Program-made: the position numbers and the translations under genes | DNA from: Bugula neritina | Taxonomy: Eukaryota > Animalia > Bryozoa | NCBI GenBank assembly: GCA_964035545.1 | Contig: OZ037765.1 | Span: 22,009,504 to 22,073,503, forward strand | Length of the DNA stretch: 64,000 bases | Direction: 5' to 3' | Notes under the pieces: generated by a model | The model's database searches: none | The model's input: only the letters and a program-made list of their open reading frames with translations | Told to the model about the DNA's origin: nothing | Part shown: in pieces, positions 39,096 to 64,000 of the stretch | Position numbering within the stretch: the first letter of the stretch is position 1 | Layout of the letters: each line of letters opens with the position of its first letter

Positions 39096-39139
<44 letters not shown>

Positions 39140-42100
39140 GATACTGCTACTACTACTGCTACTACTACTACTGCTACTACTGCTACTACTGCTACTACTG
39201 CTAGTACTGCTACTGCTGCTACTACTGCTGCTACTACTGCTACTACTGCTGCTGCTACTACTACTACTGCTGCTACTACTACTACTACTGCTGCTACTAC
39301 TACTGCTGCTACTGCTACTACTGCTACTACTGCTCCTACTACTAATGCTGCTGCTAATTCTGCATGACATTCATCAATGACACTACTTGACTTTGAAAGG
39401 TTAAAAGACTGAAGTTTATTTGCAGGTTGGAATAGAAAGTAAAGTTAACCACAACTTATTTTGAGGTGAACCTTAAACTTGTTAAAAACATATGGCAGAA
39501 TTTTACCACTGTTACTATCACTACTATAACTACTGTTACCACTGTTACTATTTCTACTATAACTACTGCTACCACTGTTACCATCACTACTATAACTACT
39601 GCTACCACTGTTACTATTTCTACTATAACTACTGCTACCACTGTTACTATCACCACTATAACTACTGCTACCACTGTTACTATTTCTACTATAACTACTG
39701 CTACCACTGTTGAAATGCTATTATCACTGCTACAATCACTAGCTATAGGAAAACACATAGTGGTTATAATTAAAACCATTAGTTACAATCAAAAACTCAA
39801 TTACAGTATCCAATTGTTGCTTAGGCCATCAAAACAAAATGGAAGTTATTTACTCTTGAATAAAAATATTTCATATGGAAAGATAACTTCTAATACATTA
39901 CAAAACCTATAAGCTCCATAGAGGTCTGTCTGCCATGTATACTATTATTCAATGAGATGTTTTACCAAATACTTAGATATAGTAGTCATATACAATGTAT
40001 CAATATATTATATATGTTATATAAAATAGTTTCAAATAAACAGAAAACAAAATGTTGTTCACCATGATAGGTTAGTAAATCGTGTTAACTTGGTGGCAAT
40101 ACCATTGTAGTATAATAACTGATTTAATCTTTATAAACTACTTTATGTTCTAAAAGGATATCATTTTATTACATCGAGTTATAATACAGCAGTAAACTAC
40201 AGCTCATAAAGAGACTGATTGAAATAGTTCAAAACCATTTGAAAGACTAGCTACGATTGAAAAGGCTACTACTGACAATTGTAGGCATTCAACAAGGTGA
40301 AACATATTAATTATTGATTCAATAGATTTTAGTAACTTTCTTAATTCATTGTTAGATATGAATTTTCTTTATAGCCTTACAGGCTTAAAATAATACCCAG
40401 TCTTTGTTAAGATATTAGACTGTTTTAGTAATATGGCCTATATATGTAGCTAACATTCTTTAGATCTGTAGCTATCAATCTTATTGCACACTGTAGTACT
40501 GTAAAATCTAATTACTGGAGTTTTAAATTTTGTGTTATAAACTCTCCCTTATAAAATCCACTCATTTTTACAAATAAAGAAGGACGAATGAGTGTTAACA
40601 TTAGATACCAGTAGCGATGCATGTAACATGGTGCAAGGAAATTTCTATTTCAAACTCCCGCAAAGTAGCTGGAGTGAGTTATTGAAGAGGTGAAATTATA
40701 GGCAATGTTTTCAATTTTAACAGAATAATTAAAATAAAATATTAAACAGGAAATTCATTTTCCTTATAGCAACAAATCAACCTTATAGTATAATAGAATA
40801 TTTACAATTACAGATTCAATCACCTTACTTGTATACAATGATTGCGAGATATAGCGCAACTATTAGTCTGGTCTAAGTCATACATGTATATTATTTTACA
40901 AGACAGTAGTTACTATAGTCTATTGATTTAGTAAGCTAATTTTAAAGAAGCATGCAATGCATGTGAACAGATTTCTACACTTCTTCTTGAGCTGATGTAA
41001 TAAATTTACCAACATCAAATAAGAATCGAAGCAATCTAACAAAATAATGTTTTGACTGCCAGAATTAATGCAAAAAAGGTGGGAAAATAAACAAATAATC
41101 AATTGGCCCAAATACCCACTACTTAAGGTTAAGTGAAATTCATGAGAATATTTAGAAAACTCACTCTGTATGTGCTCTCTGCGTTAGCCATTGGGGTTCC
41201 AGCTTTCTGGGCCTCCAACCAGTTATTCTGTGAATTCACTGTTGAATAAGGCAGTTTCTTTACATCCTTGTATGCTACAAAGTCCTTTTTATTTGTTGTT
41301 TCACAGCTAAACTTTGCCGAAGGTTTTCGATATTGGTAGGATGGGGCGAAACTAAATCAGACAGACAATTTAACTGAATAAGATAACTCATTAGTCATTT
41401 AACCAAAGAACACTGGCAAACAAGTTTAATTAAGCTTGCAAAATTTTCATAACTAGTACAAGAAAACACAATTTACACACACAAAGCACACAACAAGCTT
41501 GAAAATATTATACAATATCTTGGAACAAAAGCAACTAAATATGTAAATAATAAGACACATTTTATGTTGATAATGTGACCATTTATTGACATTTGATTCT
41601 AATCAGATTGGTGTTGATAGGTTCTATTGATTTGGCTATGAGCTATAGATTCTATACACACATGCCAATTATATTCTAACATAAAAATATAGTCCACTAC
41701 AATACAGGACCTTTGAATTAGTTACCTTTTCGTCTTAACAACAGCTCTTTGTACAAAATCTTCTGAATATCCACTGCTACCTTGAAATGTTCCACTCATA
41801 ATATTATTGTCTTTCAGCCTGTAAGCTGCAATTACATGTTATCAATGTGTCAACAGGGTTGACACTTATATTGTTGCTCTGTTAACAACAGCAAAGTAAA
41901 TACAACCAAATGATATTGATAGCAATATTAAAAAGAATTCAAGCTCTGATGAAGGTCTCCTGAATGCTTGAAGTATGTTTATATTATAGATTTGAACTAA
42001 CACTAGTTCACTGATTCTTAGTTCGCAGTTGAAACCAAGCTATTACTCCTAGTAATTATTTATATAGATGTTGAGAAGGTATATGTGTATTGTGTATATA

Positions 42101-47391: not shown

Positions 47392-48584
47392 CAGGGTTGG
47401 GGTCAATTACATGTGAATGTAATTAATTACAATTACAATTACATGAAGATTTGTCAATTACAATTACAATTATAATTACAGTTAAAAGATAATGTAATTA
47501 ATTACAATTACAATTACATGGTGATGTAATTAATTACAATTACAATTACTTTTGTTCTCACAAGGAATAACTAGAAGTTATACAATGTCACTTCTAGGGC
47601 CCAACTACCAGGGGCAATGTTGACAGTGGTGAACCTCCTTTGTTCCCAATAGTGACACTATAAGGTCACTCCATGCCAAATCAACCAAATTTTTAAGGGT
47701 CCCACACCTTTGCTTCTCAGATTTTGCTTATGTTTACACATGTCCGGTGTACTATTCGTGAATATTTCTGACATGACACAAAAACTTTTTGAGAAATGAC
47801 TACATTTGTGAAAAAAGGTTGGGAAAACTTTTGAGGAAAATTTGTGATTTCTACTTTTAGACCAACTTATAAATGTCTATATCTCAACCATTTTTTTTAG
47901 ACTGAGCCTTAAAAATTGATGTGGGAGATATTTAAAAAATTTTCAAAATTTACAAAAATTTACCCATATTCGATGGTTTAGCATATATGTACACAAATTG
48001 TTCTGTAGTATGTGTTGGTACTAGTGCAAGTTGATAGGCATTATTAAATCAAACAGCAAATTTTAAGAGCCTAGAAAAATGGTTGAGATATAGACATTTA
48101 TAAATTGCTCTAAAAGTAGAAGTCACCAATTTTCCTTAAAGTTTTTCCCAACCTTTGTCCACAAATGTAGTAATTTCTCAAAAAGTTTTCTGTCAGGCCA
48201 AAAATATTTAAGAAAAGTACTCAGGACATATGTAGGCCTATAATTTGGTGTAAATATGAATAAACTCTGAGACACAAAGGCACCGGCCATGTGGTGAGTT
48301 AGCATGGAATGACCCTATACTCGTATATTGACTTAATCTGAACTTGTTATTTAACAGTAGATATGGTAGGAAAAGAATGATTTTTTTAAGATTTAAAAGT
48401 TTGAAGTAATTGACATGTAATTATAAAGTAATTGTAAAATTCAATTACATTAGCAATGTAATTAATTACAATTACAATTACAATTACATTTTTATGCATC
48501 AATTACAAATTACATTCAATTACTTGAAAAAATGTAATTAATTACAACCAATTACAATTACAAATTACAATTACCCCAACCCTG
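47392..48584. mobile_element. Non-autonomous hAT-superfamily DNA transposon with subterminal (AATTAC)n arrays
   Basis: 12-bp TIR CAGGGTTGGGGT...ACCCCAACCCTG, with a perfect 8-bp TSD GTACACAG at 47384-47391 and 48585-48592. No ORF. Confidence 0.9.
47663..48315. mobile_element. Foldback MITE nested inside the hAT element
   Basis: Termini AGGTCACTCCATGCCAA and TTAGCATGGAATGACCC, flanked by TATA on both sides. Long internal inverted arms (47781-47900 versus 48071-48189). Confidence 0.8.
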
Positions 48585-48896: not shown

Positions 48897-51800
48897 ATGA
48901 TGAATTCCGTGAAAATCAATTACATGGCAGTGGCTGCCACTTTGACCGTGGTTATCATTTTTATGATGTCATTCTACCATCATCGATCACCAGTATGTAT
49001 GGTTTCTGTAAATAAATAAAAGTAATTATTTGCAGAATATATATGCATTATATATAAAAAGTAAAACTTTTTTCATCTTGCACATTATCAACTTACTAAT
49101 ACTGTTGCTTTGCAAATGATCTGCTTGTTTCGCTATAGTTGTTATAGTAAATTTTTCTATGTATTTTCTTTTATTTTCGGCGATTACGTTCATAAAACAA
49201 GTACATATTAATACTGTTGAACTGCATTTATTTTACTGCTAATGTGTTCCAGGTCTTGACTTTGTATATAGACTGCAGATTTTGATCAAATGTTTTGCTT
49301 TCTTATTGGCTACCCAGAAGATCACAATAGCTGCTTATCTATCATAATCTGCATGTTGCTCAATTAATGCTTGCAGACAGTAAACCTCAGAGAACTTTTA
49401 TCAGCTAGCATTGATCTGGCAGAAAAAGGGGGTCTAAAAACAGTAGAAGTAAAAAAGAAACACAAACTAAATGCCGAAAGTAAAGGCAAAACTAAGGAAG
49501 GTGCTGATGAGATGAAAACTGATGGTGACATGCAGTCACACCGAGCTATTATTGCAGGATTCCATAGAACATTCCCTAGTTTAGCATCCAGGGTTAGTAT
49601 CTTCAAGCACTAAAGATCATAGAAGTTTCATCAAAATTTAGATTTCGTTATAAATTTTTTGAGTTATGAAATCAAACAATGTTGGACTATCATTTATTTG
49701 TTTTAGTAATTGGTTCAATAGACAATTTTCAGAGGTCCCTGATATCCCCTTTATAATTAAGAGTTGTGTCCTCCCAAAGTGAATAGGTTGCACCTTTGTA
49801 TAAAGAGCAAACTCATTAAAAATTTAAAGTTTGGCTGCTACTTAAAATTCTAATTATGCTATAGAATTGTTATTTTAGGAGATAGATATTTTGGTATAAG
49901 CACACATATTAGCAGTTCAAAAATTTTTTTTAAAATATTTCATCATGGATAATTTTGACTAAAATAAACTTTAAAGCATTTTTGTGATTTTGGTTACTGA
50001 GCAATGCTGAAATGGCACTTCAGCATTGCTCAGCAACCAAAACCACAAACATGAGCTCAAGTCTATTTTGCTCAACAAATTTCTTTTGGGAGACCACAAC
50101 TCTTAATTGTAAGGGACCTCTGAAAAGGGTCTATTGATATGACATGTCGCATACTAGTATGATAAACCTTGTAGATTGTATCTGAAGAACACGATAAAAG
50201 GCATGCGTCTGAAGATGCAACAGATGCAAATATTCGCAGACCAGAGACTCAATTGTTGCCTAGTGAGTTTGTTAAAGTCAAGGATATTACTGTATGGGTT
50301 GACCCCCTTGATGCTACACAGGAATATACAGGTATTATACTTTATTAAATAACTTCTGATTTACCTATTTTTACTGTAATAAATTTTTTTGTAATGCATT
50401 GTTAGCGTTACATGAAACCTAATTTATTCTATATTTTGTTGTCTGATACTGTTAGAATGATGCTTTGCAGGAAATCAAGTTTAGACATTAGGTGTTTGTA
50501 ATAAGTGAATGGTATGTCTTTGGCCACTTGGCAATTTTTGTATTATTAGAGAATTTCAGATTTACTGGTGCTTATCAACATAATGTTTTGTACAAATTTC
50601 AAAAATAATTCTAAAATATAAAAAGAAAAAAAATGCCCACCCAAGATATAATTTAGATATCGCTTAATGTTACATGATGCATTCATACCACACCTTTGTT
50701 TTTTTATAACGTAGAGTTTATTTTTTTGGTACAAGTATGTTTATTCTACGTAACTACTGTAATTACGAAGCTTTTTATAAGAAATGCTCTGTGACAGTAA
50801 ATGTTTCATTGTGAAACATTGTGCTATAATTCTTAGTGTATCTTTTATTTACTGTAGAGGATTTGGACCAGTATGTGACAGTGATGATCTGTGTTGCAGT
50901 AAAGGGTAAACCTGTGATAGGAGTTGTTCATAGGACAGAGAAATCTGAGCAATATGATAAAGAAACTAGTGAGTAAATAAAAACCTCTTCTTTTTAAAAC
51001 AACCCAACTTAGTCTCAAAACCAGTGTATTACACACACAGCACTCTTGATTTGTTTTAAATAAAAAATTAGCAGTCATCAGCTTTCACTAAGTACAAAAA
51101 ATGATTTTTACTTAATCGTTCATTTAGAATGTATCTTGTTGCACTTCATGTGATTGCACAACAACATTTTCCTTCTAATTGGCTTTTTTTGTTGGCATAA
51201 TATATCAAAGTTTAACCACATCATTGTAATTTCTCAATGAATATAATGTTTGAGTTCTCATATACATACTACATTATGCAATTGTATTATATTGCAGTGT
51301 GGGCTTGGGTAGGTAATGGAATATCTAATAACTTGGGTGCTATCAAGGATATCACAAAAGCTCCTAAGGATCCTAAAATTATCATATCTAGGTCACATAA
51401 GGGGGATGGAGAAGAAATTGTCAAACAGGCATTTGGTGGTGGTGAGTTGTTCAAAAGATTAGATTATTTCTCCCACCCTTTGTTCAGCTCTTTTATTTAC
51501 CAGTTCATTTATATTCTTTCTCTACTTTTATCAAACAACCTTAAATTTTGCGCTTGCAAATTGTATTTGTATGAAAACTGCTATTAGTTGGTTCCAATAT
51601 ATGTTTACATGTTTTTTAAACTTTCAATTTGATTCTCATTAACTCATAGAGAAGAAAACTGTGCTGTTAGGTTGTTAATTGCATTTCACTCTGTTTCCTA
51701 GGTTGAATCTGTCGAATAAGCTAGGTTTAATATGGATTTTGTAAATTTTTGTGTGTAGGGAAAGTAATTTCTGCTGGTGGTGCAGGCTACAAAGCCATGG

Positions 51801-52045
51801 AGGTGATCAGAGGCAAAGCAGATGTATATGCTCATGTTACTCTTATTAAGAAATGGGATATTTGTGCCGGGAATGCTCTACTGAATGCTGTTGGTGGTAA
51901 AATGAAAACTCTGAAAAATGAGACTATCACTTATGACAAGGAAAGTGGTCCTCTTAATAAGAATGGACTCTTGGCTTCTATGGCTCATTTTAATTACTAT
52001 CTTGATAAACTGGGTCCACTATTTTCAGCTAAAATTAAAAGTTAG
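48897..52045 (+). CDS. BPNT2: Golgi-resident PAP 3'-phosphatase (IMPAD1/gPAPP), inositol monophosphatase family, 336 aa
   Basis: Exons 48897-48992, 49377-49592, 50175-50331, 50858-50968, 51298-51441 and 51759-52045 (1011 nt). N-terminal signal anchor; motifs [43 protein letters not shown] and IKKWDICAG. Confidence 0.93.
49715..50137. mobile_element. MITE in BPNT2 intron 2
   Basis: Imperfect ~55-bp TIRs (TCAATAGAC..TTTTCAGAGGTCCCT...AATTAAGAGTTGTG..CTCCCAAA and its inverse) plus an internal hairpin at ~49980-50049. Superfamily not assigned. Confidence 0.75.
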
Positions 52046-53723: not shown

Positions 53724-56700
53724 ATGGAAGAATATGATGGAAATGCTAAGCCTCGTGGTAAATGCAATTACTACATGTATACATGTTAAGCCTGATGCAA
53801 TAACTTCAGGGTTATTTAAATTATTACTTATACTTATAGTTATAGATATTACTTATTAATATTAGTATTACACTTTTTACAGCCAGTGTCACAATATGAA
53901 TATGAATATAAATATTGGTATTCATATTGATATTGAATACTTATACTGTAAAAGACTAAGTATTGACTACACAAGTTCAACACAACGACGAAATTGAAGA
54001 CATTTGTCGAACTTTTGACGGTTGAACATAATAATAAAGTTTAACGTTGTCAATTACTGTGTAGATTAAGGTTTAGTAAAACTAATTATCAACATGTATT
54101 TGTTCTGTCGGCTGTTTCGATTCTTTATTTTAAAATTAATGTTCAAATTGAGAAATTTTATCTTAAATTAATTTGATTGGTCTGTAAAATTTAAAGTTAA
54201 TCGTAAACCAATTTTGAATAGTTGATAACTATAAGTATAACTACTACTTTATTTACATTTAACGCCAAACTTAAGCTAAATGAATTTAATAATATTAAGA
54301 ATAATATCTGTACAACTAATCTTTAGAGTAAGACTTAGTTTATGCTTACCCTTAGTGATTGTAACCTACTGTAAGTATATTTAACTTTAGCTTCATGTAA
54401 ATAAAATAATTTTTATTATTATTTGTTGGTTGTGCCACAGCTTTTTGCTGATGTCCTCTCCTAACATTGATCTAGTTCCGCTGGGTCAGATAGGACTTTT
54501 CTCAAGGTGTGAGTTGATCTTAGTAAGGCTGTCTGTTAAATCAATAAATAGTAACATTTAGTATACAATCTTGTATGTAATTTCAAGGGCTTCAATTGAT
54601 ATCAGTACAGTTTTTGTGTATGTTTCCTAAAGATCGGTAAATTCTAATGCAAGCGCCTGATAATTTGCTACCTTTTGTTATTTTTTCTCTGGTACTCGCT
54701 AGGAATAGCGATATATTGAGTATCATTATTTCTGCGTTGCGCTTGCCAACTACTACAGTATCAGGCCTCATAGCTTTGATGATTTGGTTGGTGTGTATGT
54801 TGAAATCTTACAAGATCTTTATATTGTCACTTTCCATAATTTATTTCAAATGGTAGTCGTTTTTATTTCGTGCTTTTTTTCTGAAGTTTGTGGATTCCAC
54901 ACACAACTCTGAGTGATTTATCTCTTTTTATATTTGCCAGGTGCTATTTTTTGCATTCACTAAGTATATGCATCACAATTTTTTTCTTTGCGTTAATTAT
55001 CTGACACTTTTTGCTGCTTTGTTATTTCATTATGATCACCTTGTAAATCTTAGTAGGAGGCGCTTGATTCTCAGCAGCTAACAGTTCCTCTGTTTCCTTT
55101 TTTAGCCGACCAGATCATAACCAGTTTTAAAAATATGTTTTCATTGCTTATGCTTTTTCTATTTATTATTTCTTCCAATCGCTTTGTTTTTCTATAGTGC
55201 TACTTCCAAGTCGTTCAGTATTATGTCTGTATCTATGCCTGTTCTCTTTATTTAATCTGACAACCTTCAGTATCTACACCTTCCTTAATTGACACTGTAG
55301 TGATATGCTTACCTTGGTACTGGTGATATTAAACTTATTAGGTATAAGATTCTAATCCACCAGGTCAGTATGACTTTAGCTTCAAGTTTAAGTTTTAGTT
55401 TGTGAGTATTAGTATGAGTATTGTTATGATTTTCAGATCTAGGGTTGATGTGCTCTCCAGAGAGTCTATTTATTTGCTATAGAACTGCACCAGGATAAGT
55501 CGAGTGAACGAGTATATTTTACACACAATTATACATTATAAAAACGATACATTATATTCAAACAAGTTACACATCTAATCTATTTCACACTCTAGCTTCG
55601 ACTGAGTTAGCAGCGGGAAACTACAATTGCTGCTAACTATCAACTACGCTAATTGGCTATCCATTGTTCCGGGTCAATTACGCGACCCTACATGTTGTGC
55701 TGCTGGTAGTTCCACGAACCACCACACCGCCCCCACCAGCAGAAAGCCATCTTTCTGATATATATATTAAAAAAACATTCATTAGTAACCGCATACATCA
55801 GTGGACAAAAATAACACATAATATACAGGAAGAGACATAATAATAGACAGAGTCATCATAACGATCCGTTGCATACAATTGGCCAGCTGTAGATAGACGA
55901 GGAATACTAGCTAGCTGTGGTGTTAGACAGGGGATAACCTGTTAAGCAGTTAAACATTTGCATGACATCTTGGTTCCTCCCAAGATGTGAAGTTGCGGAG
56001 TATTCTGGGTAGCCAACTAGAGTCCTTGTTGGGCACGCCGGTGCTTGGCTTGGCATGTACGCAGTTTCCGTTTCATACGGCATACGGATCCCTTTAGCTG
56101 GAAGAGTCCTGTTGTAGTGTTAAGTAGATCTGGTGCCAGCTGGGTGAATTCTTCTTGTAATCGCAGGAGGCGTTCTTCTACTGTGGCTAGGCGTACTGGG
56201 TCTGGGGACGGTGTCCGTCTGCGGCGCAAGGGTGGACTGGGGGACCTGGTTCGTCTCTTCGTCGGGGTAGGGGAGATCTCTCCTTCTTCTGGATATGTAA
56301 TTTCCTCGGGGGTGTATGTAATTTGAGGGCGGTCAGACACCAACGGGGATTGTTGGCGGGCGTTGTCTAACACACGTTGGAACCCCGAGGACAGAACGGC
56401 TAACAGCATGGCCCTCTTCACCAGAGGTCGTATAAGTGTGAGGAACTCCGGGTATAGCTTAGCGTCGACCACGTAGTTTTCTCCAGGGAAACAGCCCGTC
56501 GCTCGGTGTCTGGTGACGGGGTAGGGATACACATCATTGTACCCGCAGGGGCAGAATGTTAGTAGGAGATGAGCATTGACGTGTAGTTTAAGGGAGCGGT
56601 GAGAGGCGCAATCTTCACCACAGATCTGGCATCTCGTCCGTCCTCTGGACCCCCAGGCCGTTTCTATTTCTTCTTCTGTTTGTGGAGACACCCACCGCCA

Positions 56701-59700
56701 ACGGCGGCGTAGTGGCTCAGGCCGGTCACCACTAGCATACTCCTCCGGATATGGAGCGGGAAGTGTTCTATCCCGTACCCTGGTTGTAGCGGGTCGAGTG
56801 TATTCTGAAAAAGTTTCAACAGTGTTAATACAGTACACTGCCGTGTTGTCAGCTTGAATAGCTTGGCAACTCCTAATTCAGTTACCTCGTAGAGATTTAT
56901 GGTAGTGAATAGTCAGATAGAACACGTATTGCAATGAGATTATAAAAATCTCTAAGTCAAACTGAGTTCTTACTACGGTATTCCACTAACCTATCTCCAG
57001 CTCGATTGACTCAGTGAGTCAGAGCTGAGCGATGCAATCTAGTTTCGTATTAAGATATAGTTAACTCACCCCACGATCTGTTGTCGTAAGACATACTGAA
57101 TGTGTGAAATGGTTTGAACTACTGCTTAGAAACACGTCTACTCCTGACTGCATCAGCGTATGAAAAGATCGAGCAACGTGGTTGGGGTGCGTGATTAAGA
57201 CTTTGTGCACCCGGCGGATGAATTTTGTTTCTATTTCCGCCGATACAAAAGTTGATATTTCCTTGGTGTTGACAACTCCCACATTTGCTCGATACTTTTC
57301 TCGTACGGTTTTCCCTAGACTTTCATACACGCCGCTTTTAACGCAGTCGCATATGAAGTCCTTCAAGTATGCGGGGGGTTGCCTCGTACGCTGTCCCCTT
57401 TCTAGGGGGGGTGACACGCTTGCCGGTTCGTTAGTAGGGGCCTCTAATGGCGTCTCTACTTCACCGTTAGCGGTCACCTCTTCTTGTTCTCCGGATGGAG
57501 CCCCTCCCTCCGTGGGGGTTTGCACTTCCGGAACCGGTTCGGTTTCTGGAAGTGATGGAATTAGACTTGGCGGTGGCGGACACGCTTCTGTTGACAAAAG
57601 CTGCCGCTCCTCTCTCACCAAGTTTTCTTCCCGCGGTATGACCACTTCGTATTCAGGTCCATGCCGCCGTCGCCCGCGCGTTGTTGTCTGCCTCCTGGGC
57701 TCTAACAACGGGGGGGGGGCTTCTCCCACTCCGTCAGGGCTAGCCCAATACGGTTTCAAGCGAGACTCATTCTGGATAGACACCTGTCCTGAGCGCTCAA
57801 TCTTGTACGTATGATTGGGCATAGCCTCGACGACCACGTAGGGGCCTACGAACTTAGGCTTCAGCTTATCAGCCTGTTCGCGACGCCTACGGTAATTGAC
57901 CATCCACACCTTATCTCCCATTTGATAGAGAGGTGGTTCATCGGAATCTTCGTGCCGCACCTTCCACTGCTGTTGGCGCAGTATATCGTGTGCGGCCTTC
58001 ATCCGTTCCACTAGTTCACTGGCATACTCGTGAACTGAGTTGTCTTGCTCTGGAACGTGATAGGTGAGATGGTCAGGGACACGAGTCTCTCTCCCGAGCA
58101 TCAAGAGGTTTGGGGTCTCACCAGTACTGGTGTGTGGGGTGCTACGGTATGCACGCATGACTTGCGGCAACACCGTATCCCATTCCTCTTGACCTCGTCC
58201 AAGGAGGAGACTCCGGAGTGCATCACCTAGCATCCGGTTGTTGCGCTCCACCACCCCGTTACCTTGAGGGTGGTAGGGGGTGGTCCTGCTCTGATTTACT
58301 CCCCAGAGGCGGCAAAGGTCGCTCATCAGTTGAGACTGGAATTGAGCGCCTTGATCAGAGTGTATCTGTTCGGGGAGCCCAAAATAACAGAATACATGTT
58401 GGTCTAGTGCCCTGGCCACTGTTGGGGCTGATGCATCTGGGATAGCCAGAGCATCCGCCCACCTAGTAAAGTGGTCGGTTAGTACTAGGATCCAATTATT
58501 GCCTCTGGGGGTCAGGGGCATGGGTCCGACCAGGTCTACAGCGACTACTTGCCAGGGCCTACCAGCATATAGCCTCCGCCGTCCTGCTTCACCAGGGGGG
58601 CGGCTATGCTTACTGGCCTGGCAGATCTCACACTGTTTGACTCTGAGCCGGACGTCACGCTCCATTTGTGGCCAATACCACCGGAGTCGTAATTTGGACA
58701 TCACTCTCTTGACCCCTGCGTGGGCCTGTTTGTGAGTATCCCAAATCAACTCGCGGCGGATGGCTGTGGGGCAGACTACCCTCTTCCTTTCCGGGTGTCT
58801 GCCGCTGGCAGCTAGAGAGATGGTTAGCAACCCATCCTGCCCGATCCGCAGCGAGTCCCAACGCTGACAGTATAGCCGGAACTCGGCACATCCCTGTCGT
58901 ATGCGTTCCTCGCTGGGTCGTCGCCCTTCCCTTTTGGCCCGGTATACGTCTGCCACGACTCCAGGCAGCTCTTCTTAGAGCTTCTTCAGCTCTCGAACAT
59001 TACCGGCCAGTACAGGGTTGGCGCGGAGGTTTTGTACATCCTCCGGGGACTCATCAACTCTTTGCCTGAGTTGACCTTGGTCCCAGTCAAACGGTGCTCC
59101 GTGGTGAGCCAGCGTCTCCAACTCGCATCGCGGGGGACCTCCATCCCTCCTCTCGATGTTGAGACACTGTTTGCAACCTCCGTCAGGTCGGCGACTCAAC
59201 CCATCCGCATTGCTGTGTCTCTTGCCCGGTCGATGTTCGATCCGGTATGAGAATTCAGCTAGGATTTCGAGCCACCGGGCGACCTGACTAGAGGGCTCTG
59301 CTCTCCTGCACAACCAGATCAGCGAGGCATGATCCGTACGCAGCCGGAACTTCCTGCCATATAGGTATGGTCTGAAGTGCTTCACTGACTTGATTACTGC
59401 CAGCAGCTCCTTGCGGGTAGTGCAGTAATTTCGTTCAGCGGGTGAGAGAGACTTGCTGTAGTAGGCTACTACTACCTCTCGGCCTTCCTGCACTTGTGAC
59501 AGCACAGCGCCAACATTTTGGTCACTGGCGTCCGTGTCTAGGATGTACTCCAGAGTGGGGTCTGGGTAGGCCAAGATGGGCGCCGTTAGTAGGCAGCCCT
59601 TGAGGCGGTCGAACGCTTCCTGTTCGACTGGGGTCCACTGCCACGTCACTCCCTTTGCGGTGAGCCGGTTTAACGGCTGGGCTATGCCCGCAAAGTCTGG

Positions 59701-62700
59701 TATGTATTGCCTGTAATACCCTACCAGCCCCAAGAAAGCCCGGAGTCCGGTCAAGTCTTGGGGGGTGACCCAGTCTTCTACTGCCCGTACCTTTTCGGGA
59801 TCCGTTGCCACGCCGTTTCGACCGACAACGTGCCCCAGGTACTTGACCTCCGGCTGCAATAGAGCGCACTTGGAAGGTTTGAGTTTAAGACCGGCACCTC
59901 GGAGTCTCTCGAAAACCTCCTGCAGACGACTGACATGTGTCTCGAAGTCTGGAGAGATTACGATGACATCATCGAGGTAGACCAGCAGTGTCTTCCAATG
60001 GAGTCCGCTAAGGACTTGTTCCATCAGCCTCTGGAAGGTGGCTGAGGCGGAGGTTAACCCGAAGGGCAGCACCTTCCACTTCCACAAACCGTCCCGTGTG
60101 ATAAACGCCGCTTTCTCCTGGGCGTCGGGACTCAGAGGAACTTGCCAATAGCCGCTTAGCAAGTCTAACGTACTGAAGTACTTGCTGCCGGCTAGGGCGT
60201 CCAATGACTCGTCAATACGAGGTAGAGGATAAGCGTCCTGTATGGTTACGCTATTGAGCTTGCGGTAATCCACACAGAACCGCCAACTGCCGTCTTTCTT
60301 CCGGACCAGTACGACTGGCGAGCTCCACGCGCTATGGGCGGGCTCTATCAGTCCCCGGTCCAGAAGATCCCGTACTTGTCGGCTAACTTCCTTCTCTTTT
60401 TCCGGCCCCAGCCTGCGTGTGGGCTGCCGGACAGGGACTGTCCCTGCAGTCAGCGGTATTTCGTGCCTGACAACTCCAGTCAGCCCCACGTCATGATCTC
60501 CGCTACTGAACACATCACCGTAGTCGCGTAGCAACTTCGCCATGGCTTGGCGTTCCTTGTTGCTCGCGCAGCCGCCACTGGCTGTTCCGTATAACTCCCG
60601 GAGATGTGTTGGGACTGCCCCTCGTCCCTGAATAGGGCACTGAGGGAGTGCCTCTGTCGCATCACCTAGCGACGGGCCTACGTCTCCCTCCTGAACAGAG
60701 TGAAAACGGCCCAGCATCGACCCAGCCGGGAGCTTGATAGGCTCGGTAAAGGGGTTGACGCACTGCACTAAGATCTCCCCTTGCTCAGTCAACTGATTCA
60801 GACTGCTGGCAAGTTGGATCTTTTCGTGCGCGCCTTCAACCACCCCGAGTCCAGAGATCCGGCTATTATTCACCCTGCAGTGAATGGTAGCCCGGGAGCG
60901 GCCTGGTATGATACGGTTGCGTACCACTTGCACACCTCCCACTAAAGGGCGGCCGAACTTGTCGACGCAGGCGAGTTCCCGCCCGGACATCATCATTGCA
61001 GATCTGCTAAAATCTATGTGACATCCGTGCCGTTTAAGGAACGGCATCCCGAGGATAGCATCCTCCTTGAGCTGACTGACGATGAACGTCTCTTGGATCG
61101 TTTGATCACGGACTCGTCCCGTCAGCTCAATTATACCATAGAAGGGAAGGCACGACCCGTCAGCTAGGGTGCCGTATTCCCCTTCGTATGATTCCATTTC
61201 GCCCCTGACCCTAGCACTGAGGGTGTCGAAGAGTTGGCGGCTTAAGAGGTTTGTGGTACAGCCCGAATCAATGAGGAAAGTAACAGCTTTGCCTTCCAGT
61301 TTACCGGGCAAGAAATAGCTGTTCCCATGGGGCTGCACCTGAACTCTCTCTCTTCAGGCCCTACTCTCGCAGGGAGTACCTCCCTCGCTTTGGGTCGCGA
61401 AGGAGGTCTCTTGGGGCGGTGGTAGGTAGGCCTCGGGGGTGCCGAGGTTAGATCCTCGGCTACCTTTGTGGGCTCCCATCCAGATTCTTGGACTCGTAGC
61501 CCTGTGAATCTGTTGTGAAGGGGCATAGAAAAGGCAGCCGCGGGGCGAAGCCCCTTGCTGGTCCGTCGTGGCTGTTGCCACTGTTGGTTGCCAGTACGCG
61601 ATACCCGTCTGGGTGACCTGCGTTTCTTCTTCCCTGGGGGTTTCATCGTCGGCCCGCAAGAGGTGGGAACATCTGCGGGCCGCGGTAGTTTAACCCCTGA
61701 TTTAGGAAGGGACAGTATCGGCGGAAATGCCCTTGATTTCCGCACTCCCAGCAAAAACTGACTGTTTCTCCCTGTGGCGGCGCCGATGGCCGCATGGGCT
61801 CAGGGGCGGTACTCACTGGGTTTTGTGGTGTCAGTGTTGCTATCAGCTTGGCTAGCATGTCTGTCAGTTGAGTGACTTTCGATGCCGTCGCCAACTGGGA
61901 CACGGCAGCCGCGGCGGGGGTTTCCTCCCCTTGTCCCGCGGCCGTGTCTGCGCGGTCTATCTCCACTTGACGGGAGCTTCCGCGACTTTTATGCATTTGA
62001 TTAGCTAGGAGGTAAGCTTCCCCCTCAGTCAGAGCATCTTCAACGGTGGTGACTCCCCTAGCTAGAAACTGGTGGTGGAGACCCAGATCGTCGACAGATG
62101 CTATGAAAGCGTCGAGGGTATACCTCTCGCGGTTGACTGGGGGCAAGTCGCTGTACGCGATCTGTGCCAGCTTCATGACCGCGGCGGCATGCTCCCGCAG
62201 CGGGGTGCGGGGATCACGCCGCAACCTCTGCAATCGGGCCCTGGCATCTGTAGCAGAGAGGCCGAAGCGGGCCCGCAGAGAAGCAAAGATATTATCAATG
62301 TCTACGCCCAGCCCATAAGGCTTGGCTTTGTCCATCAATGCCATTCTAAGCTTCAGCAAGGCCACCCTAGGGGGCCACTGGGCGACGTCCATTACGTCAC
62401 TAAACTCTTGGATAAATTGTTCCACCTCCTCTTCACCCGTGAAGGTGGGCGCCTTTAACCGGTAGCGTTCCTTAGTTAGTTCTCGCGGAACCCTTCGCTC
62501 TTCTACTACATGGTTAACAGGCATTGTCTCTACAGCATTGTCTCTACGCTCACCTTCTATTGCCGGTGGTTGAGTTCCAGCATTTTCAGTCTCCATCTTG
62601 GATGCACTATCCCACTGCTGCCACCACTGTTATGATTTTCAGATCTAGGGTTGATGTGCTCTCCAGAGAGTCTATTTATTTGCTATAGAACTGCACCAGG

Positions 62701-64000
62701 ATAAGTCGAGTGAACGAGTATATTTTACACACAATTATACATTATAAAAACGATACATTATATTCAAACAAGTTACACATCTAATCTATTTCACACTCTA
62801 GCTTCGACTGAGTTAGCAGCGGGAAACTACAATTGCTGCTAACTATCAACTACGCTAATTGGCTATCCATTGTTCCGGGTCAATTACGCGACCCTACATG
62901 TTGTGCTGCTGGTAGTTCCACGAACCACCACAGTATCACTGTGTTCGTAGCCCACAACCTTGGTCCCAGTCTCTTGTCAGTCTCTAAGTATAACGTCAGT
63001 TAATATTTGAGTTATTAGTTAGTAGGTGTATGCTCAAGTACTAGTAAAGGATTTGTTTCAATTAGTATAAGTATCTCTTATGAATTTGTTCACTCTTTAT
63101 CAATCTCAATCTTCTTTCGTTCTCTCCATGCTCATTTCCTATTTCTTTTTTATTAATTTACAAATAAAGAACAGATAACTCCTTGGTATACACTTCAGAC
63201 ACTATTTGTCTGCTGCCTTCCTTCCTGCCAATACACAGCCTGTTTAAATCACCATCATTATCATTAGTATCATTATTATAATTATATACTAAAGCTAATA
63301 TATTTTGCAGCATTTTCATTTTTTGAAAAGTGTTGAATCCTTGCATAAATTACGTAATTTATAATAAGGCCAGCCAGAAATTTTGTTTTTATTGTCAGTG
63401 CTCTGTATCTTTAAAACTGTCTTAATATTAAAGTTTATTTATGGGGTTTTTAAGAGCCAAGAAAGAAGCTGAAGAAGAAAAAGTCACCAGCAAAAGAAGA
63501 ACTTTTACCTGATCCGCAAGAAAACATTATTGGTTAGTTCAACTAGTAATTTATAGCAGTTACTTAGAAGTGATGACTATAAGCTCATCAAAAGGTTCTA
63601 CTGTGCAAATTTGCAAGTTTTTTCAGTTTTAACAATAGATAACTTTACATGCATGCATACTGTTAATTTATTAAGCTGCTAACCTTTACAGCTATAAAAG
63701 TATTGCACTTTTGTCAAATAAGCTATTGTGAAGAAATATAAAAAGTTAAATATAGCAATATGCGTTGACACTCATGTTTTGCTTTCTGCGGAGATATTAC
63801 CAATATTACATCAACTTGTCATAATTTTTTTAAAGCATAATATTGTTACACTTGTTTTTGCTTGAATTATAATACTGTACGTATTTGGCAATCACTACTA
63901 ACCATTATAATATATTATGTGTTTTACAGCAGCCAACAGCATAAAAAAATCTACAAAGGCAACTTTTGATTTGTATTTAGAGCAAGCTCAAGCAAATATT
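53724..64000 (+). CDS. Probable 5' exons of an unidentified host gene continuing beyond the window
   Basis: Candidate exons 53724-53757 (ATG in ACAATGG context), 63455-63532 and 63930-64000 join in phase 1 with GT/AG ends. They give an open frame MEEYDGNAKPREPRKKLKKKKSPAKEELLPDPQENIIAANSIKKSTKATFDLYLEQAQANI. No homology recognised. Confidence 0.45.
54410..55330 (-). mobile_element. Decayed 3' end of an RLE-type non-LTR retrotransposon (R4/Dong-like)
   Basis: Broken frames give LKKETEELLAAENQA, VMHILSECKK, MESDNIKIL*DFNIHTNQIIKAMRPDTVVV, IAIP and YQALALEF. These resemble the CCHC and PD-(D/E)xK restriction-like endonuclease region. The element ends in a short (TAA)n tail near 54412; its 5' limit is approximate. 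Confidence 0.7.
55422..55726 (-). repeat. 3' LTR
   Basis: No difference from 62628-62932 found by eye. AATAAA on the minus strand at 55469-55474. Confidence 0.97.
55727..55737 (-). promoter_or_regulatory. Polypurine tract
   Basis: GGTGGGGGCGG on the minus strand directly abuts the 3' LTR. Confidence 0.8.
56017..56804 (-). CDS. Retrotransposon ORF3 main exon: zinc-finger / basic SP-rich / coiled-coil protein, not env-like
   Basis: The open frame contains C-x2-C-x12-H-x3-H and C-x-C-x12-H-x4-C (56631-56491), KRRTRSPSPPLRRRRTPSP and a 43-residue heptad repeat (56190-56062). There is no ATG upstream of the fingers; the acceptor ACTTTTTCAG| ends at 56805. Confidence 0.8.
57061..58974 (-). CDS. 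pol, integrase portion (same frame as RT, separated by one TAA)
   Basis: HHCC (HKQAH...CEIC), DDE (VAVDLVGP, HSDQGAQF, VERNNR), GPY/F module (PKFVGPY) and RTRQPPAYLKDF tail motif. Confidence 0.95.
   Translation of the reverse strand, partial: EELPGVVADVYRAKREGRRPSEERIRQGCAEFRLYCQRWDSLRIGQDGLLTISLAASGRHPERKRVVCPTAIRRELIWDTHKQAHAGVKRVMSKLRLRWYWPQMERDVRLRVKQCEICQASKHSRPPGEAGRRRLYAGRPWQVVAVDLVGPMPLTPRGNNWILVLTDHFTRWADALAIPDASAPTVARALDQHVFCYFGLPEQIHSDQGAQFQSQLMSDLCRLWGVNQSRTTPYHPQGNGVVERNNRMLGDALRSLLLGRGQEEWDTVLPQVMRAYRSTPHTSTGETPNLLMLGRETRVPDHLTYHVPEQDNSVHEYASELVERMKAAHDILRQQQWKVRHEDSDEPPLYQMGDKVWMVNYRRRREQADKLKPKFVGPYVVVEAMPNHTYKIERSGQVSIQNESRLKPYWASPDGVGEAPPPLLEPRRQTTTRGRRRHGPEYEVVIPREENLVREERQLLSTEACPPPPSLIPSLPETEPVPEVQTPTEGGAPSGEQEEVTANGEVETPLEAPTNEPASVSPPLERGQRTRQPPAYLKDFICDCVKSGVYESLGKTVREKYRANVGVVNTKEISTFVSAEIETKFIRRVHKVLITHPNHVARSFHTLMQSGVDVFLSSSSNHFTHSVCLTTTDRGVS
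58975..61353 (-). CDS. pol: aspartic protease, reverse transcriptase, RNase H
   Basis: Protease FLIDSG; RT SPVVLVRKKDGSWRFCVDYRKLN, LPFGL and YLDD; RNase H DTDAS, ELLAV, RTDH and NADGLSR. Confidence 0.97.
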   Translation of the reverse strand, partial: RERVQVQPHGNSYFLPGKLEGKAVTFLIDSGCTTNLLSRQLFDTLSARVRGEMESYEGEYGTLADGSCLPFYGIIELTGRVRDQTIQETFIVSQLKEDAILGMPFLKRHGCHIDFSRSAMMMSGRELACVDKFGRPLVGGVQVVRNRIIPGRSRATIHCRVNNSRISGLGVVEGAHEKIQLASSLNQLTEQGEILVQCVNPFTEPIKLPAGSMLGRFHSVQEGDVGPSLGDATEALPQCPIQGRGAVPTHLRELYGTASGGCASNKERQAMAKLLRDYGDVFSSGDHDVGLTGVVRHEIPLTAGTVPVRQPTRRLGPEKEKEVSRQVRDLLDRGLIEPAHSAWSSPVVLVRKKDGSWRFCVDYRKLNSVTIQDAYPLPRIDESLDALAGSKYFSTLDLLSGYWQVPLSPDAQEKAAFITRDGLWKWKVLPFGLTSASATFQRLMEQVLSGLHWKTLLVYLDDVIVISPDFETHVSRLQEVFERLRGAGLKLKPSKCALLQPEVKYLGHVVGRNGVATDPEKVRAVEDWVTPQDLTGLRAFLGLVGYYRQYIPDFAGIAQPLNRLTAKGVTWQWTPVEQEAFDRLKGCLLTAPILAYPDPTLEYILDTDASDQNVGAVLSQVQEGREVVVAYYSKSLSPAERNYCTTRKELLAVIKSVKHFRPYLYGRKFRLRTDHASLIWLCRRAEPSSQVARWLEILAEFSYRIEHRPGKRHSNADGLSRRPDGGCKQCLNIERRDGGPPRCELETLAHHGAPFDWDQGQLRQRVDESPEDVQNLRANPVLAGNVRELKKL
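61354..61688 (-). CDS. Gag-Pol transframe linker (-1 frame relative to gag; part of ORF 61242-61754)
   Basis: Reached by a -1 shift at GTTAAAC. Basic, Pro-rich sequence containing PLHNRFTGL. It would join the protease frame if one GA unit were removed at 61344-61353. Confidence 0.6.
61643..62596 (-). CDS. gag, 317 aa
   Basis: ATG 13 nt after the PBS; capsid-like PTFTGEEEVEQFIQEF; zinc knuckle CWECGNQGHFRRYC. Confidence 0.93.
   Translation of the reverse strand: METENAGTQPPAIEGERRDNAVETMPVNHVVEERRVPRELTKERYRLKAPTFTGEEEVEQFIQEFSDVMDVAQWPPRVALLKLRMALMDKAKPYGLGVDIDNIFASLRARFGLSATDARARLQRLRRDPRTPLREHAAAVMKLAQIAYSDLPPVNRERYTLDAFIASVDDLGLHHQFLARGVTTVEDALTEGEAYLLANQMHKSRGSSRQVEIDRADTAAGQGEETPAAAAVSQLATASKVTQLTDMLAKLIATLTPQNPVSTAPEPMRPSAPPQGETVSFCWECGNQGHFRRYCPFLNQGLNYRGPQMFPPLAGRR
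62609..62626 (-). promoter_or_regulatory. Primer-binding site, tRNA-Leu
   Basis: TGGTGGCAGCAGTGGGAT begins 1 nt inside the 5' LTR boundary. It is complementary, with one mismatch, to the 3' end ATCCCACCGCTGCCA-CCA of animal tRNA-Leu(AAG/TAG). Confidence 0.85.
62628..62932 (-). repeat. 5' LTR
   Basis: 305 bp, TG...CA ends, matching 55422-55726. Confidence 0.97.

What the first reader, a model, noticed from the sequence alone, without database searches (positions are those of the whole stretch)
56805..57094. Splice model B: a mini-exon overlapping the integrase end plus a 265-nt intron
Seen: in another frame of the last IN codons there is AGT-ATG TCT TAC GAC AAC AGA TCG TGG G|GTGAGT (ATG 57094, A at -3; donor 57069, phase 1). 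It splices in frame to the same acceptor and gives MSYDNRSWEYTRPATT... The intervening 265 nt are more AT-rich than the element body, like a host intron. Inference: ORF3 may have its own start and an internal promoter, or two isoforms (A and B). An intron with consensus ends that survives reverse transcription implies regulated intron retention in the genomic RNA, which a Rev-like ORF3 could explain.
Basis: partly seen in the sequence, partly recalled or inferred. Interest (0 to 1): 0.72.

Follow-up and report, generated by a model that had tools for sequence, protein, structure and literature searches.

The report
Two splice starts for retrotransposon gene
A young jumping gene of the Ty3/gypsy type carries a third, conserved zinc-finger gene behind a splice site; a relative shows this gene joined to the start of gag, and the tiny upstream exon reported here is likely a second, alternative start that still needs RNA evidence.

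Summary
The coordinates are right: ATG 57094, donor 57069, acceptor 56805, a 265-nt intron at 38% GC, in phase with ORF3. They lie in a young Ty3/gypsy LTR retrotransposon whose ORF3 is a conserved non-env protein with a double zinc finger and a coiled coil. The acceptor is conserved: 22 of 23 relatives fit YYYYAG, against 64 of 1773 controls. The exception, P0021, is a natural gag-leader-to-ORF3 junction, so the directly supported route is model A (gag donor 62553). Model B has indirect support only. All 6 integrase tails that reach the site (two lineages) fit ATG, 25 nt, donor at the same spacing; 0 of 120 control tails do at those offsets. No B junction was found: 0 of 23 proteins, no contig joint, and no RNA cover. 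The overlap with the integrase end is not general: in most family tails Pol ends before the ATG. The internal promoter and the Rev-like role are untested; CERV and Oikopleura Tor are precedents. Verdict: a new variant of a known kind; model B about even odds.

The parts
62628..62932 (-). 5' LTR, 305 bp, TG...CA
   Evidence: identical to the 3' LTR; 4-bp target-site duplication ATAC on both sides
62609..62626 (-). primer-binding site, tRNA-Leu-like (tRNA identity recalled, not tested)
   Evidence: sequence 1 nt behind the LTR; the same 18-mer lies before gag in L002
62554..62596 (-). gag leader exon (model A): gag ATG + 14 codons + 1 nt; donor AAG|GTGAGC at 62553, phase 1
   Evidence: xGE/ESE (fits N|GTGAG) in 61 of 63 gag relatives with a readable N-terminus; natural junction in P0021
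61643..62596 (-). gag ORF (317 aa, C-terminal CCHC knuckle)
   Evidence: zf-CCHC weak, E 0.14; 130 homologues
57061..61353 (-). pol: protease, RT, RNase H, integrase; this copy has an in-frame stop at 58977-58975 and leaves the family's IN-tail frame near 57,310
57290..57490 (-). strongest predicted RNA structure of the element, in the IN tail; candidate cis-element, function unknown
   Evidence: z -7.5 and -5.1 among 148 windows; z -4.8 for 57510-57270; no Rfam match
57119..57121 (-). stop codon of the frame in which family integrases end
   Evidence: 17 of 63 IN-tail hits carry the SYAD-type motif in their own frame; 7 of the 17 end at or one codon after this stop
57070..57094 (-). mini-exon (model B): ATG + 7 codons + 1 nt
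   Evidence: position-compatible in 6 of 6 IN tails that reach it; peptide not conserved between lineages
56805..57069 (-). 265-nt intron (GTGAGT...TTTTTCAG), also the 3' end of the 5,749-nt model-A intron; branch-like CTGAC and TTAAC 20-50 nt before the AG
   Evidence: homologous over its length in P0028 (219 of 260 aligned nt compatible, score 87.8 vs shuffled max 22.2); acceptor predicted inside a stem
56017..56804 (-). ORF3 coding exon: a C2H2 finger plus a second Cys/His finger in a compact 136-aa domain, a Pro/Ser/Arg linker, a 59-residue helix and a basic tail
   Evidence: 70 homologues, 123 by profile; models pLDDT 82.9 and 93.6; near-invariant C/H
55727..55737 (-). G-rich polypurine-tract-like stretch before the 3' LTR
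55422..55726 (-). 3' LTR, 305 bp

Best explanation
The 265-nt stretch is the last part of an intron in a Ty3/gypsy retrotransposon whose acceptor (56805) opens a conserved zinc-finger third gene; a relative shows this gene joined to the gag start, and the 25-nt ATG mini-exon is likely a second, alternative first exon, predicted to be transcribed from an untested internal promoter at the end of pol. Shown: the signals, their phase, the conserved acceptor, and one natural gag-to-ORF3 junction in a relative. Inferred: LTR-driven RNA is partly spliced from the gag donor (isoform A), while the unspliced remainder serves as genome and gag-pol message; a shorter transcript starting in the integrase tail splices the mini-exon, which supplies only a start codon (isoform B, same fingers, different first residues). 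The predicted stem over the acceptor would keep splicing incomplete. Speculative: ORF3 binds nucleic acid and acts on the element's own RNA, as CERV does.
For: Phase 1 at both donors and at the acceptor. ORF3 has no Met before residue 132. 22 of 23 junction-spanning ORF3 homologues fit YYYYAG at the same codon vs 64 of 1773 control positions; the 23rd is P0021. P0021's first 14 residues are identical to a gag start (P0093) and run straight into the ORF3 exon. The gag donor is kept as xGE/ESE in 61 of 63 otherwise divergent gag N-termini. For B: the tail of P0222 aligns (114 of 130 nt compatible, score 61 vs shuffled max 19) with its ATG-compatible and donor-compatible positions on 57094 and 57069, at 69 and 94 nt from the anchor, the window's own distances. 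Five tails of a second lineage (P0225, P0252, P0257, P0259, P0260) do not align over this stretch, yet fit ATG at 67 and donor at 92, the same 25-nt spacing. Control: 6 of 120 gag C-tails fit the pair anywhere, 0 at those offsets. In run X2, none of the 30 listed substitutions and none of the 10 indel rows falls in the ATG, the -3 A or the donor; all 10 indel rows lie in the intron. Precedents: Tor3a splices env from a donor near the gag start and Tor3b/4b use an internal promoter (PMC4402516, passages); CERV (PMC10309623).
Against: No B junction was seen: 0 of 23 junction-bearing proteins and no contig joint in 56760-57200 (the contigs are short and 16 loose-end rows were not shown). The RNA run X1 has no cover from 56866 to 57126. 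B conservation rests on back-translated proteins, not DNA: each ATG needs one of two possible codons, and the five second-lineage tails are close kin (two independent lineages in all). The X2 invariance of the 11 signal bases is not significant (P about 0.15). P0028's start fits the donor register only slightly better than one 4 nt inside the intron (scores 1.7 vs -0.6), and its best gapped alignment starts inside. The mini-exon peptide is not conserved. I ran no promoter scan suited to animals and saw no TATA-like box by eye. Many relatives have their own Met just behind the acceptor, so they need no upstream exon. The distant relatives L001/L002 show no such intron. Whether P0021's contig is DNA or RNA is unknown.
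Confidence: 0.5

Rival explanations
1. Model A only: ORF3 is made solely from the gag-leader splice, and the ATG/GTGAGT pair is a cryptic site kept by descent in a slowly changing stretch.
For: The only natural junction is of type A. No B product among 23 proteins or in X2 contigs. A lax B-like arrangement arises in 21% of shuffles. P0222 is close enough in this stretch to share the motif by descent.
Against: The second lineage fits ATG and donor at the 25-nt spacing although the sequence there no longer aligns; 0 of 120 controls do at those offsets. A strict arrangement arises in 1.1% of shuffles.
Confidence: 0.25
2. Decoy donor: the GTGAGT binds U1 snRNP and engages the ORF3 acceptor without productive splicing, damping splicing so that genomic RNA accumulates, like the negative regulator of splicing of Rous sarcoma virus.
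For: The donor position is conserved while the peptide is not. No intron-less B copies were seen, although such copies would keep PBS and PPT and could be copied. A decoy 5' splice site is described for RSV (PMC3082916, start of abstract in the search listing). The acceptor lies in a predicted stem.
Against: It does not explain an ATG kept 25 nt upstream in phase with ORF3. The RSV element lies in gag, far from its acceptor (recalled).
Confidence: 0.12
3. B without a promoter: only the 265-nt intron is removed from LTR-driven RNA, and ORF3 is translated from ATG 57094 by reinitiation after Pol or by internal ribosome entry on the structured IN tail.
For: The family Pol stop lies 24 nt before the ATG, or at the donor. 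The element's strongest predicted RNA fold lies 200-400 nt upstream.
Against: Such RNA would be packaged and give full elements lacking the intron; none were seen. The frame relation between Pol stop and ATG differs between lineages (69 vs 67 nt).
Confidence: 0.08
4. Internal (middle) exon: the CAG at 57098-57096 is an acceptor, and a 26-nt exon is included between the gag donor and ORF3.
For: YAG with 10 of 15 upstream pyrimidines, as many as at 56805.
Against: 26 nt breaks the gag-ORF3 phase. Of 8 upstream YAGs tested, only one (78-nt exon) keeps phase, and it contains the stop at 57121. The relatives' residues at this position (S-K-W, V-E-Y) do not fit a YAG there.
Confidence: 0.05

Closest known systems
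Oikopleura Tor elements (PMC4402516; 8 passages read)
   Same: A third ORF expressed either by splicing from a donor near the gag start (Tor3a) or from an internal promoter in or after pol (Tor3b/4b): the two routes proposed here.
   Different: In Tor the third ORF is an env glycoprotein, the two routes are in different elements, and the internal-promoter RNAs showed no splicing. Here ORF3 is a zinc-finger protein, both routes would sit in one element, and B would have its own small intron.
CERV of C. elegans Cer1 (PMC10309623; abstract, 12 passages and section 9 read)
   Same: A non-env 3' ORF joined by splicing to gag-derived N-terminal exons, with a Cys-rich region and a predicted coiled coil; CERV is required for export of unspliced genomic RNA.
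   Different: CERV is 517 aa from 5 exons, with H/M/G domains, and is reported to have no obvious homologue outside nematodes. ORF3 has a C2H2-type double finger and one short leader exon. No CERV comparison was run, and ORF3 function is untested.
Drosophila errantivirus env splicing (bioRxiv 10.1101/2023.08.03.551782; 2 passages read)
   Same: [quoted passage not shown]
   Different: The product there is Env-F, and no second first exon at the pol end is mentioned in the passages read.
Foamy virus internal promoter for tas/bet (internal promoter seen in a figure legend of PMC7828637; the spliced tas/bet transcripts are recalled)
   Same: An internal promoter near the 3' end drives accessory-gene transcripts.
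   Different: It is a retrovirus, with the promoter in env (recalled); Tas is a transcriptional activator. No homology is claimed.
HIV Rev / HTLV Rex (recalled)
   Same: Spliced accessory proteins with an Arg-rich motif that allow export of intron-containing RNA; ORF3 ends in a basic tail (9 R/K in the last 25 residues, median 8 in 34 aligned rows).
   Different: ORF3 has a zinc-finger domain that Rev lacks; its two NES-like matches lie inside the folded domain; no RNA target is known.

Membership tests
Ty3/gypsy LTR retrotransposon | paired LTRs TG...CA, target-site duplication, PBS, PPT | tested here: met
   identical 305-bp LTRs, ATAC duplication, PBS 62626-62609, G-rich tract 55737-55727
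Ty3/gypsy LTR retrotransposon | pol order PR-RT-RNase H-IN | tested here: met
   Asp_protease_2, RVT_1, RT_RNaseH, Integrase_H2C2, rve in this order
U2-type (GT-AG) intron, model B | consensus donor, branch-like motif, pyrimidine tract, YAG, in-phase exons | tested here: met
U2-type (GT-AG) intron, model B | junction present in RNA or in an intron-less copy | tested here: inconclusive
   no RNA cover in X1; no joint in X2 contigs; 0 of 23 proteins; contigs show presence, not absence
gag-leader-spliced third ORF (Tor3a / idefix / Cer1 type), model A | conserved donor near the gag start and conserved acceptor before ORF3, same phase | tested here: met
   61 of 63; 22 of 23; both from back-translated proteins
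gag-leader-spliced third ORF (Tor3a / idefix / Cer1 type), model A | joined form observed | tested here: met
   P0021, in a relative, not in this copy; its contig DNA was not seen
env-bearing elements (errantivirus, Tor) | third ORF is a membrane glycoprotein with signal peptide and transmembrane helix | tested here: not met
   by inspection of the sequence no N-terminal signal and no hydrophobic stretch of membrane length; conserved C/H finger residues instead; no env family in Pfam; no dedicated TM predictor was run
internal-promoter third ORF (Tor3b/4b, foamy IP) | capped 5' ends inside the pol 3' end | not testable with these tools
   only contigs were served
CERV | H, M and G domains; homology to CERV | not tested
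   no CERV sequence or model was compared
CERV / Rev-like export factor | needed for export of unspliced genomic RNA; binds a response element | not testable with these tools
   needs cell experiments
CERV / Rev-like export factor | Arg-rich motif and Leu-rich export signal | tested here: inconclusive
   basic tail present; NES-like regex hits at residues 71 and 124, inside the folded domain
classical C2H2 zinc-finger proteins | C-x2-C-x12-H-x3-H finger | tested here: inconclusive
   spacing present and residues near-invariant, but Pfam zf-C2H2 is below cut-off (E 0.12) and the best finger match is Z 3.5, rmsd 3.4, 58 aligned (5vmu_A)

The most novel reading that the evidence does not exclude
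A clade of invertebrate gypsy elements carries a family of regulatory zinc-finger genes that I did not find described. The gene began as a C-terminal extension of Pol (still so in L001/L002), was cut free by an intron, and is now made in two ways in one element: from the LTR through the gag donor, and from its own internal promoter through a start-codon-only mini-exon. It controls export or splicing of the element's unspliced RNA through the structured IN tail, giving a complex-retrovirus-like early/late switch in an env-less retrotransposon.
Probability: 0.15. Interest if true: 0.8.

Novelty: new variant of a known kind. Interest (0 to 1): 0.5.

Why it matters
How LTR retrotransposons keep part of their RNA unspliced and export it is known for few elements; CERV is the worked example of a dedicated protein. 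This element offers a second, apparently unrelated candidate, with sharp tests: two named junctions, one candidate promoter region and one candidate RNA structure. If model B holds, a single element uses both expression routes that Oikopleura Tor elements use separately. The Pol-fused form in distant relatives would show how an accessory gene can arise from a polyprotein tail. If B fails, what remains is a well-supported spliced, non-env accessory gene family, not found in my literature searches.

Tried and rejected
No genome is held for this window. ORF3 patterns found no loci in metagenome contigs (180 pattern matches, none confirmed) or viral contigs (95, none). The IN scan gave 5 distant loci only, so no DNA alignment of close relatives was possible. 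RNA run X1 (share 0.16) covers neither mini-exon nor donor; both runs are contigs. In one search, 89 joints and 773 loose ends were not shown, so a model-A joint in X2 could be neither seen nor excluded. Pol-ORF3 read-through fusion was rejected: the Pol stop and the ATG share a frame in the window's lineage but not in the second (69 vs 67 nt). Splicing the window's own IN frame at 57069 enters a different frame that stops after 46 codons. The middle-exon model was rejected. I first read P0028 as proof of an exact 265-nt intron in a relative; its start register is ambiguous, so I count it only as homology of the intron body. Of the 10 IN tails tested, 4 were negative; 3 end before the site, and P0214 ends before the donor (ATG-compatible at 72). 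Fold searches: no match at E <= 0.001 in PDB or viral models; VIA-align gave only generic coiled coils (Z 6.5) and Z <= 3.6 for the finger domain; this does not show a new fold. The Atlas gave no hit at 0.9 or more. The homodimer prediction gave no verdict (score 0.09) and is not used. No Rfam match and no tRNA gene in the window. The whole intron folds only modestly (z -2.2); 15 of 148 element windows reach z <= -3 against 4 of 79 host windows, so the stem over the acceptor is suggestive, not unique. Sequence look-ups among earlier findings gave nothing. Literature searches showed no listing that describes this ORF3 family; PMC8220671 (12 passages) added nothing. Repbase, Dfam and subscription journals were not searchable, so a prior description cannot be excluded. 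No supplementary files were read.

Full report
Setting. The finding lies on the minus strand of a complete, very young Ty3/gypsy LTR retrotransposon: identical 305-bp LTRs at 62932-62628 and 55726-55422, a 4-bp target duplication, a PBS, gag, and pol in the order PR-RT-RH-IN. The host DNA is AT-rich and eukaryote-like (an inositol-monophosphatase exon at 51731-52045). This copy's pol has an in-frame stop at 58977-58975. Behind pol is a third ORF whose coding exon runs 56804-56017. No genome is held.

The observation. ATG 57094 (A at -3), a 25-nt exon, donor G|GTGAGT at 57069, acceptor TTTTTCAG at 56805, a 265-nt intron at 38% GC, and phase 1 into ORF3 are all as reported. Shuffles give such an arrangement in 22, 92 or 418 of 2000 trials for strict, medium and lax donor definitions, so the window alone is moderate evidence. 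One part does not generalise. Of 63 IN-tail homologues, 17 carry a conserved SYAD-type motif in their own reading frame. In the window that motif lies in another frame, entered near 57,310 and ending at the stop 57121-57119. Twelve of the 17 tails end before the ATG and five end at the donor. The overlap with the integrase end is therefore variable and, in this copy, a result of its own frame change.

ORF3 is a real, conserved gene that needs a spliced start. It has 70 homologues and 123 by profile, conserved from the acceptor codon onwards. The first Met of the window's exon is residue 132, behind the fingers. Of the 197 ORF3-side proteins fetched, 23 show the junction motif; 22 of these fit a YYYYAG acceptor at that codon, against 64 of 1773 control positions. 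The model shows a compact 136-residue domain (pLDDT 93.6) with near-invariant Cys/His residues, a linker and a 59-residue helix. Structure matches are weak and to tandem C2H2 fingers. It is not an env.

Model A is the route with a direct witness. A phase-1 donor AAG|GTGAGC lies after codon 14 of gag (62553). Among 63 of 120 listed gag homologues with a readable N-terminus, 57 have xGE and 4 have ESE at this place, both compatible with N|GTGAG, although leader length and sequence vary; 2 have neither. The one ORF3 homologue that does not fit the acceptor, P0021, begins with 14 residues identical to a gag start (P0093) and continues without a gap into the ORF3 exon. Two other proteins matched a leader at 50% over 10 residues, which I take as chance. 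P0021's contig is 5,320 nt, longer than the roughly 1.5-kb spliced RNA expected, so I infer a reverse-transcribed copy of spliced RNA in genomic DNA; I could not read the contig.

Model B has indirect support only. No DNA of close relatives could be fetched, so I tested back-translated IN tails. Of 10 tested, 6 fit ATG, 25 nt, G|GTR; the other 4 end before the donor. P0222 aligns to the window through the site with both signals on the homologous bases, at 69 and 94 nt from the anchor, as in the window. Five tails of another lineage stop aligning at or before 57114 (3 of the 5 were aligned), yet fit ATG at 67 and donor at 92. In the control, 6 of 120 gag tails fit the pair anywhere and none at those offsets. 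That is two independent lineages, each needing a favourable codon choice. The implied mini-exon peptides differ, so the exon would supply only a start codon. The intron body is homologous over its length in P0028 (219 of 260 nt compatible), but whether P0028's first codon is the donor is ambiguous. In run X2 (133 contigs laid), no listed variant hits the ATG, the -3 A or the donor, all 10 indel rows are intronic, and 2 of 3 mini-exon variants are synonymous in the mini-exon frame; none of this is significant (P about 0.15 for the signal bases). Against B: 0 of 23 junction-bearing proteins carry a B leader, no contig skips 56805-57069, and the only RNA run has no cover there.

Mechanism. Shown: signals, phases, a conserved acceptor and one natural A junction in a relative. 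Inferred: LTR transcripts are partly spliced from the gag donor to make ORF3-A, and the rest stay unspliced as genome and gag-pol message. The acceptor is predicted to be base-paired (z -3.9; among the lowest of 148 windows, though 15 reach z <= -3), which would damp splicing. If the B donor were used in full-length RNA, elements lacking 265 nt should be copied and spread; none was seen, so B, if used, most likely belongs to a short transcript from a promoter in the IN tail, which lacks the PBS and cannot be copied. That also accounts for the lack of B retrocopies, but it makes their absence uninformative. I put A in this element at about 0.9, productive use of B at about 0.55, and the full picture at 0.5. 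Rivals are a cryptic site (0.25), a decoy donor of the RSV type (0.12), B by reinitiation or internal entry (0.08) and a middle exon (0.05). The ORF3 function is open: zinc fingers, a long helix and a basic tail fit a nucleic-acid-binding regulator, and an RNA export role is a guess by analogy (about 0.25).

A clue to origin. Two distant elements (L001, L002; IN 37-40% identical; L002 has the same PBS) carry an ORF3-like finger and helix in frame behind integrase; in L002 the frame is open for 1,368 codons to the contig end, and L001 has one stop. The match is moderate (HMM E 1.9e-8 and 8.6e-6 among 30 frames; hhalign probability 35, E 4e-4, with the Cys/His positions aligned). The direction of change (fusion or split) was not tested.

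Comparison with what is known. Splicing a 3' ORF to a gag-start exon is known (Tor3a, PMC4402516, passages; idefix subclade, bioRxiv 10.1101/2023.08.03.551782, passages; Cer1 CERV, PMC10309623, abstract, passages and section 9). Internal promoters for a third ORF are known too (Tor3b/4b, there without splicing). CERV shows that a non-env spliced product can be required for genomic RNA export. What I did not find in six searches (listings only, apart from the papers named) is this zinc-finger family, or both routes in one element; Repbase and Dfam were not searchable.

Verdict. This is a new variant of a known kind: a gypsy element with a spliced, non-env zinc-finger accessory gene, shown for the gag-leader route in a relative and about even odds for the mini-exon route. 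Interest 0.5.

Noticed in passing
P0021 (JGI contig of 5,320 nt): A natural gag-leader-to-ORF3 junction, probably a retrocopy of the spliced subgenomic RNA; such copies would be non-autonomous elements carrying only ORF3.
   Followed up: partly
L002:5201-6724 and L001 (about 2640-3790): In distant gypsy relatives an ORF3-like finger domain and long helix lie in frame after integrase, as a Pol C-terminal extension with no intron seen.
   Followed up: partly
window 57490-57290 (-): The strongest predicted RNA structure of the element (z -7.5 and -5.1) lies in the IN tail, 200-400 nt upstream of the mini-exon; a candidate response element or entry site.
   Followed up: partly
window 56890-56790 (-): The acceptor AG and pyrimidine tract are predicted inside a stem, with a hairpin over the branch-like TTAAC; by eye the hairpin arms look compatible in several relatives' translated introns (not computed).
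   Followed up: partly
P0275 / P0376 (RefSeq XP_067940964.1, XP_067940963.1, Watersipora subatra): An annotated bryozoan protein carries two copies of the ORF3 finger domain (profile E 3.4e-33): a domesticated element gene or the host source of the domain.
   Followed up: no
window 58977-58975 and near 57,310: This copy has identical LTRs yet an in-frame pol stop and a frame change in the IN tail, so it was probably mobilised in trans (inference).
   Followed up: partly
window 61799-61242 (-): gag, a 185-codon basic frame and pol occupy different frames here, and windows at 61540-61440 fold strongly (z -5.1, -4.3); the gag-pol recoding signal was not examined.
   Followed up: no
window 56280-56190 (-): A Ser-Pro/Arg-rich linker occurs only in the window's ORF3 subfamily (P0001, P0002, P0004); other relatives have a short proline run.
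   Followed up: no
window 51731-52045 (+) and 49368-49613 (+): Host exons near the element, one of the inositol monophosphatase family.
   Followed up: no
window 39010-39654, 11843-12302, 47781-48189, 49748-50115: Tandem arrays (9-nt and 23-nt units) and two MITE-like inverted-repeat pairs.
   Followed up: no
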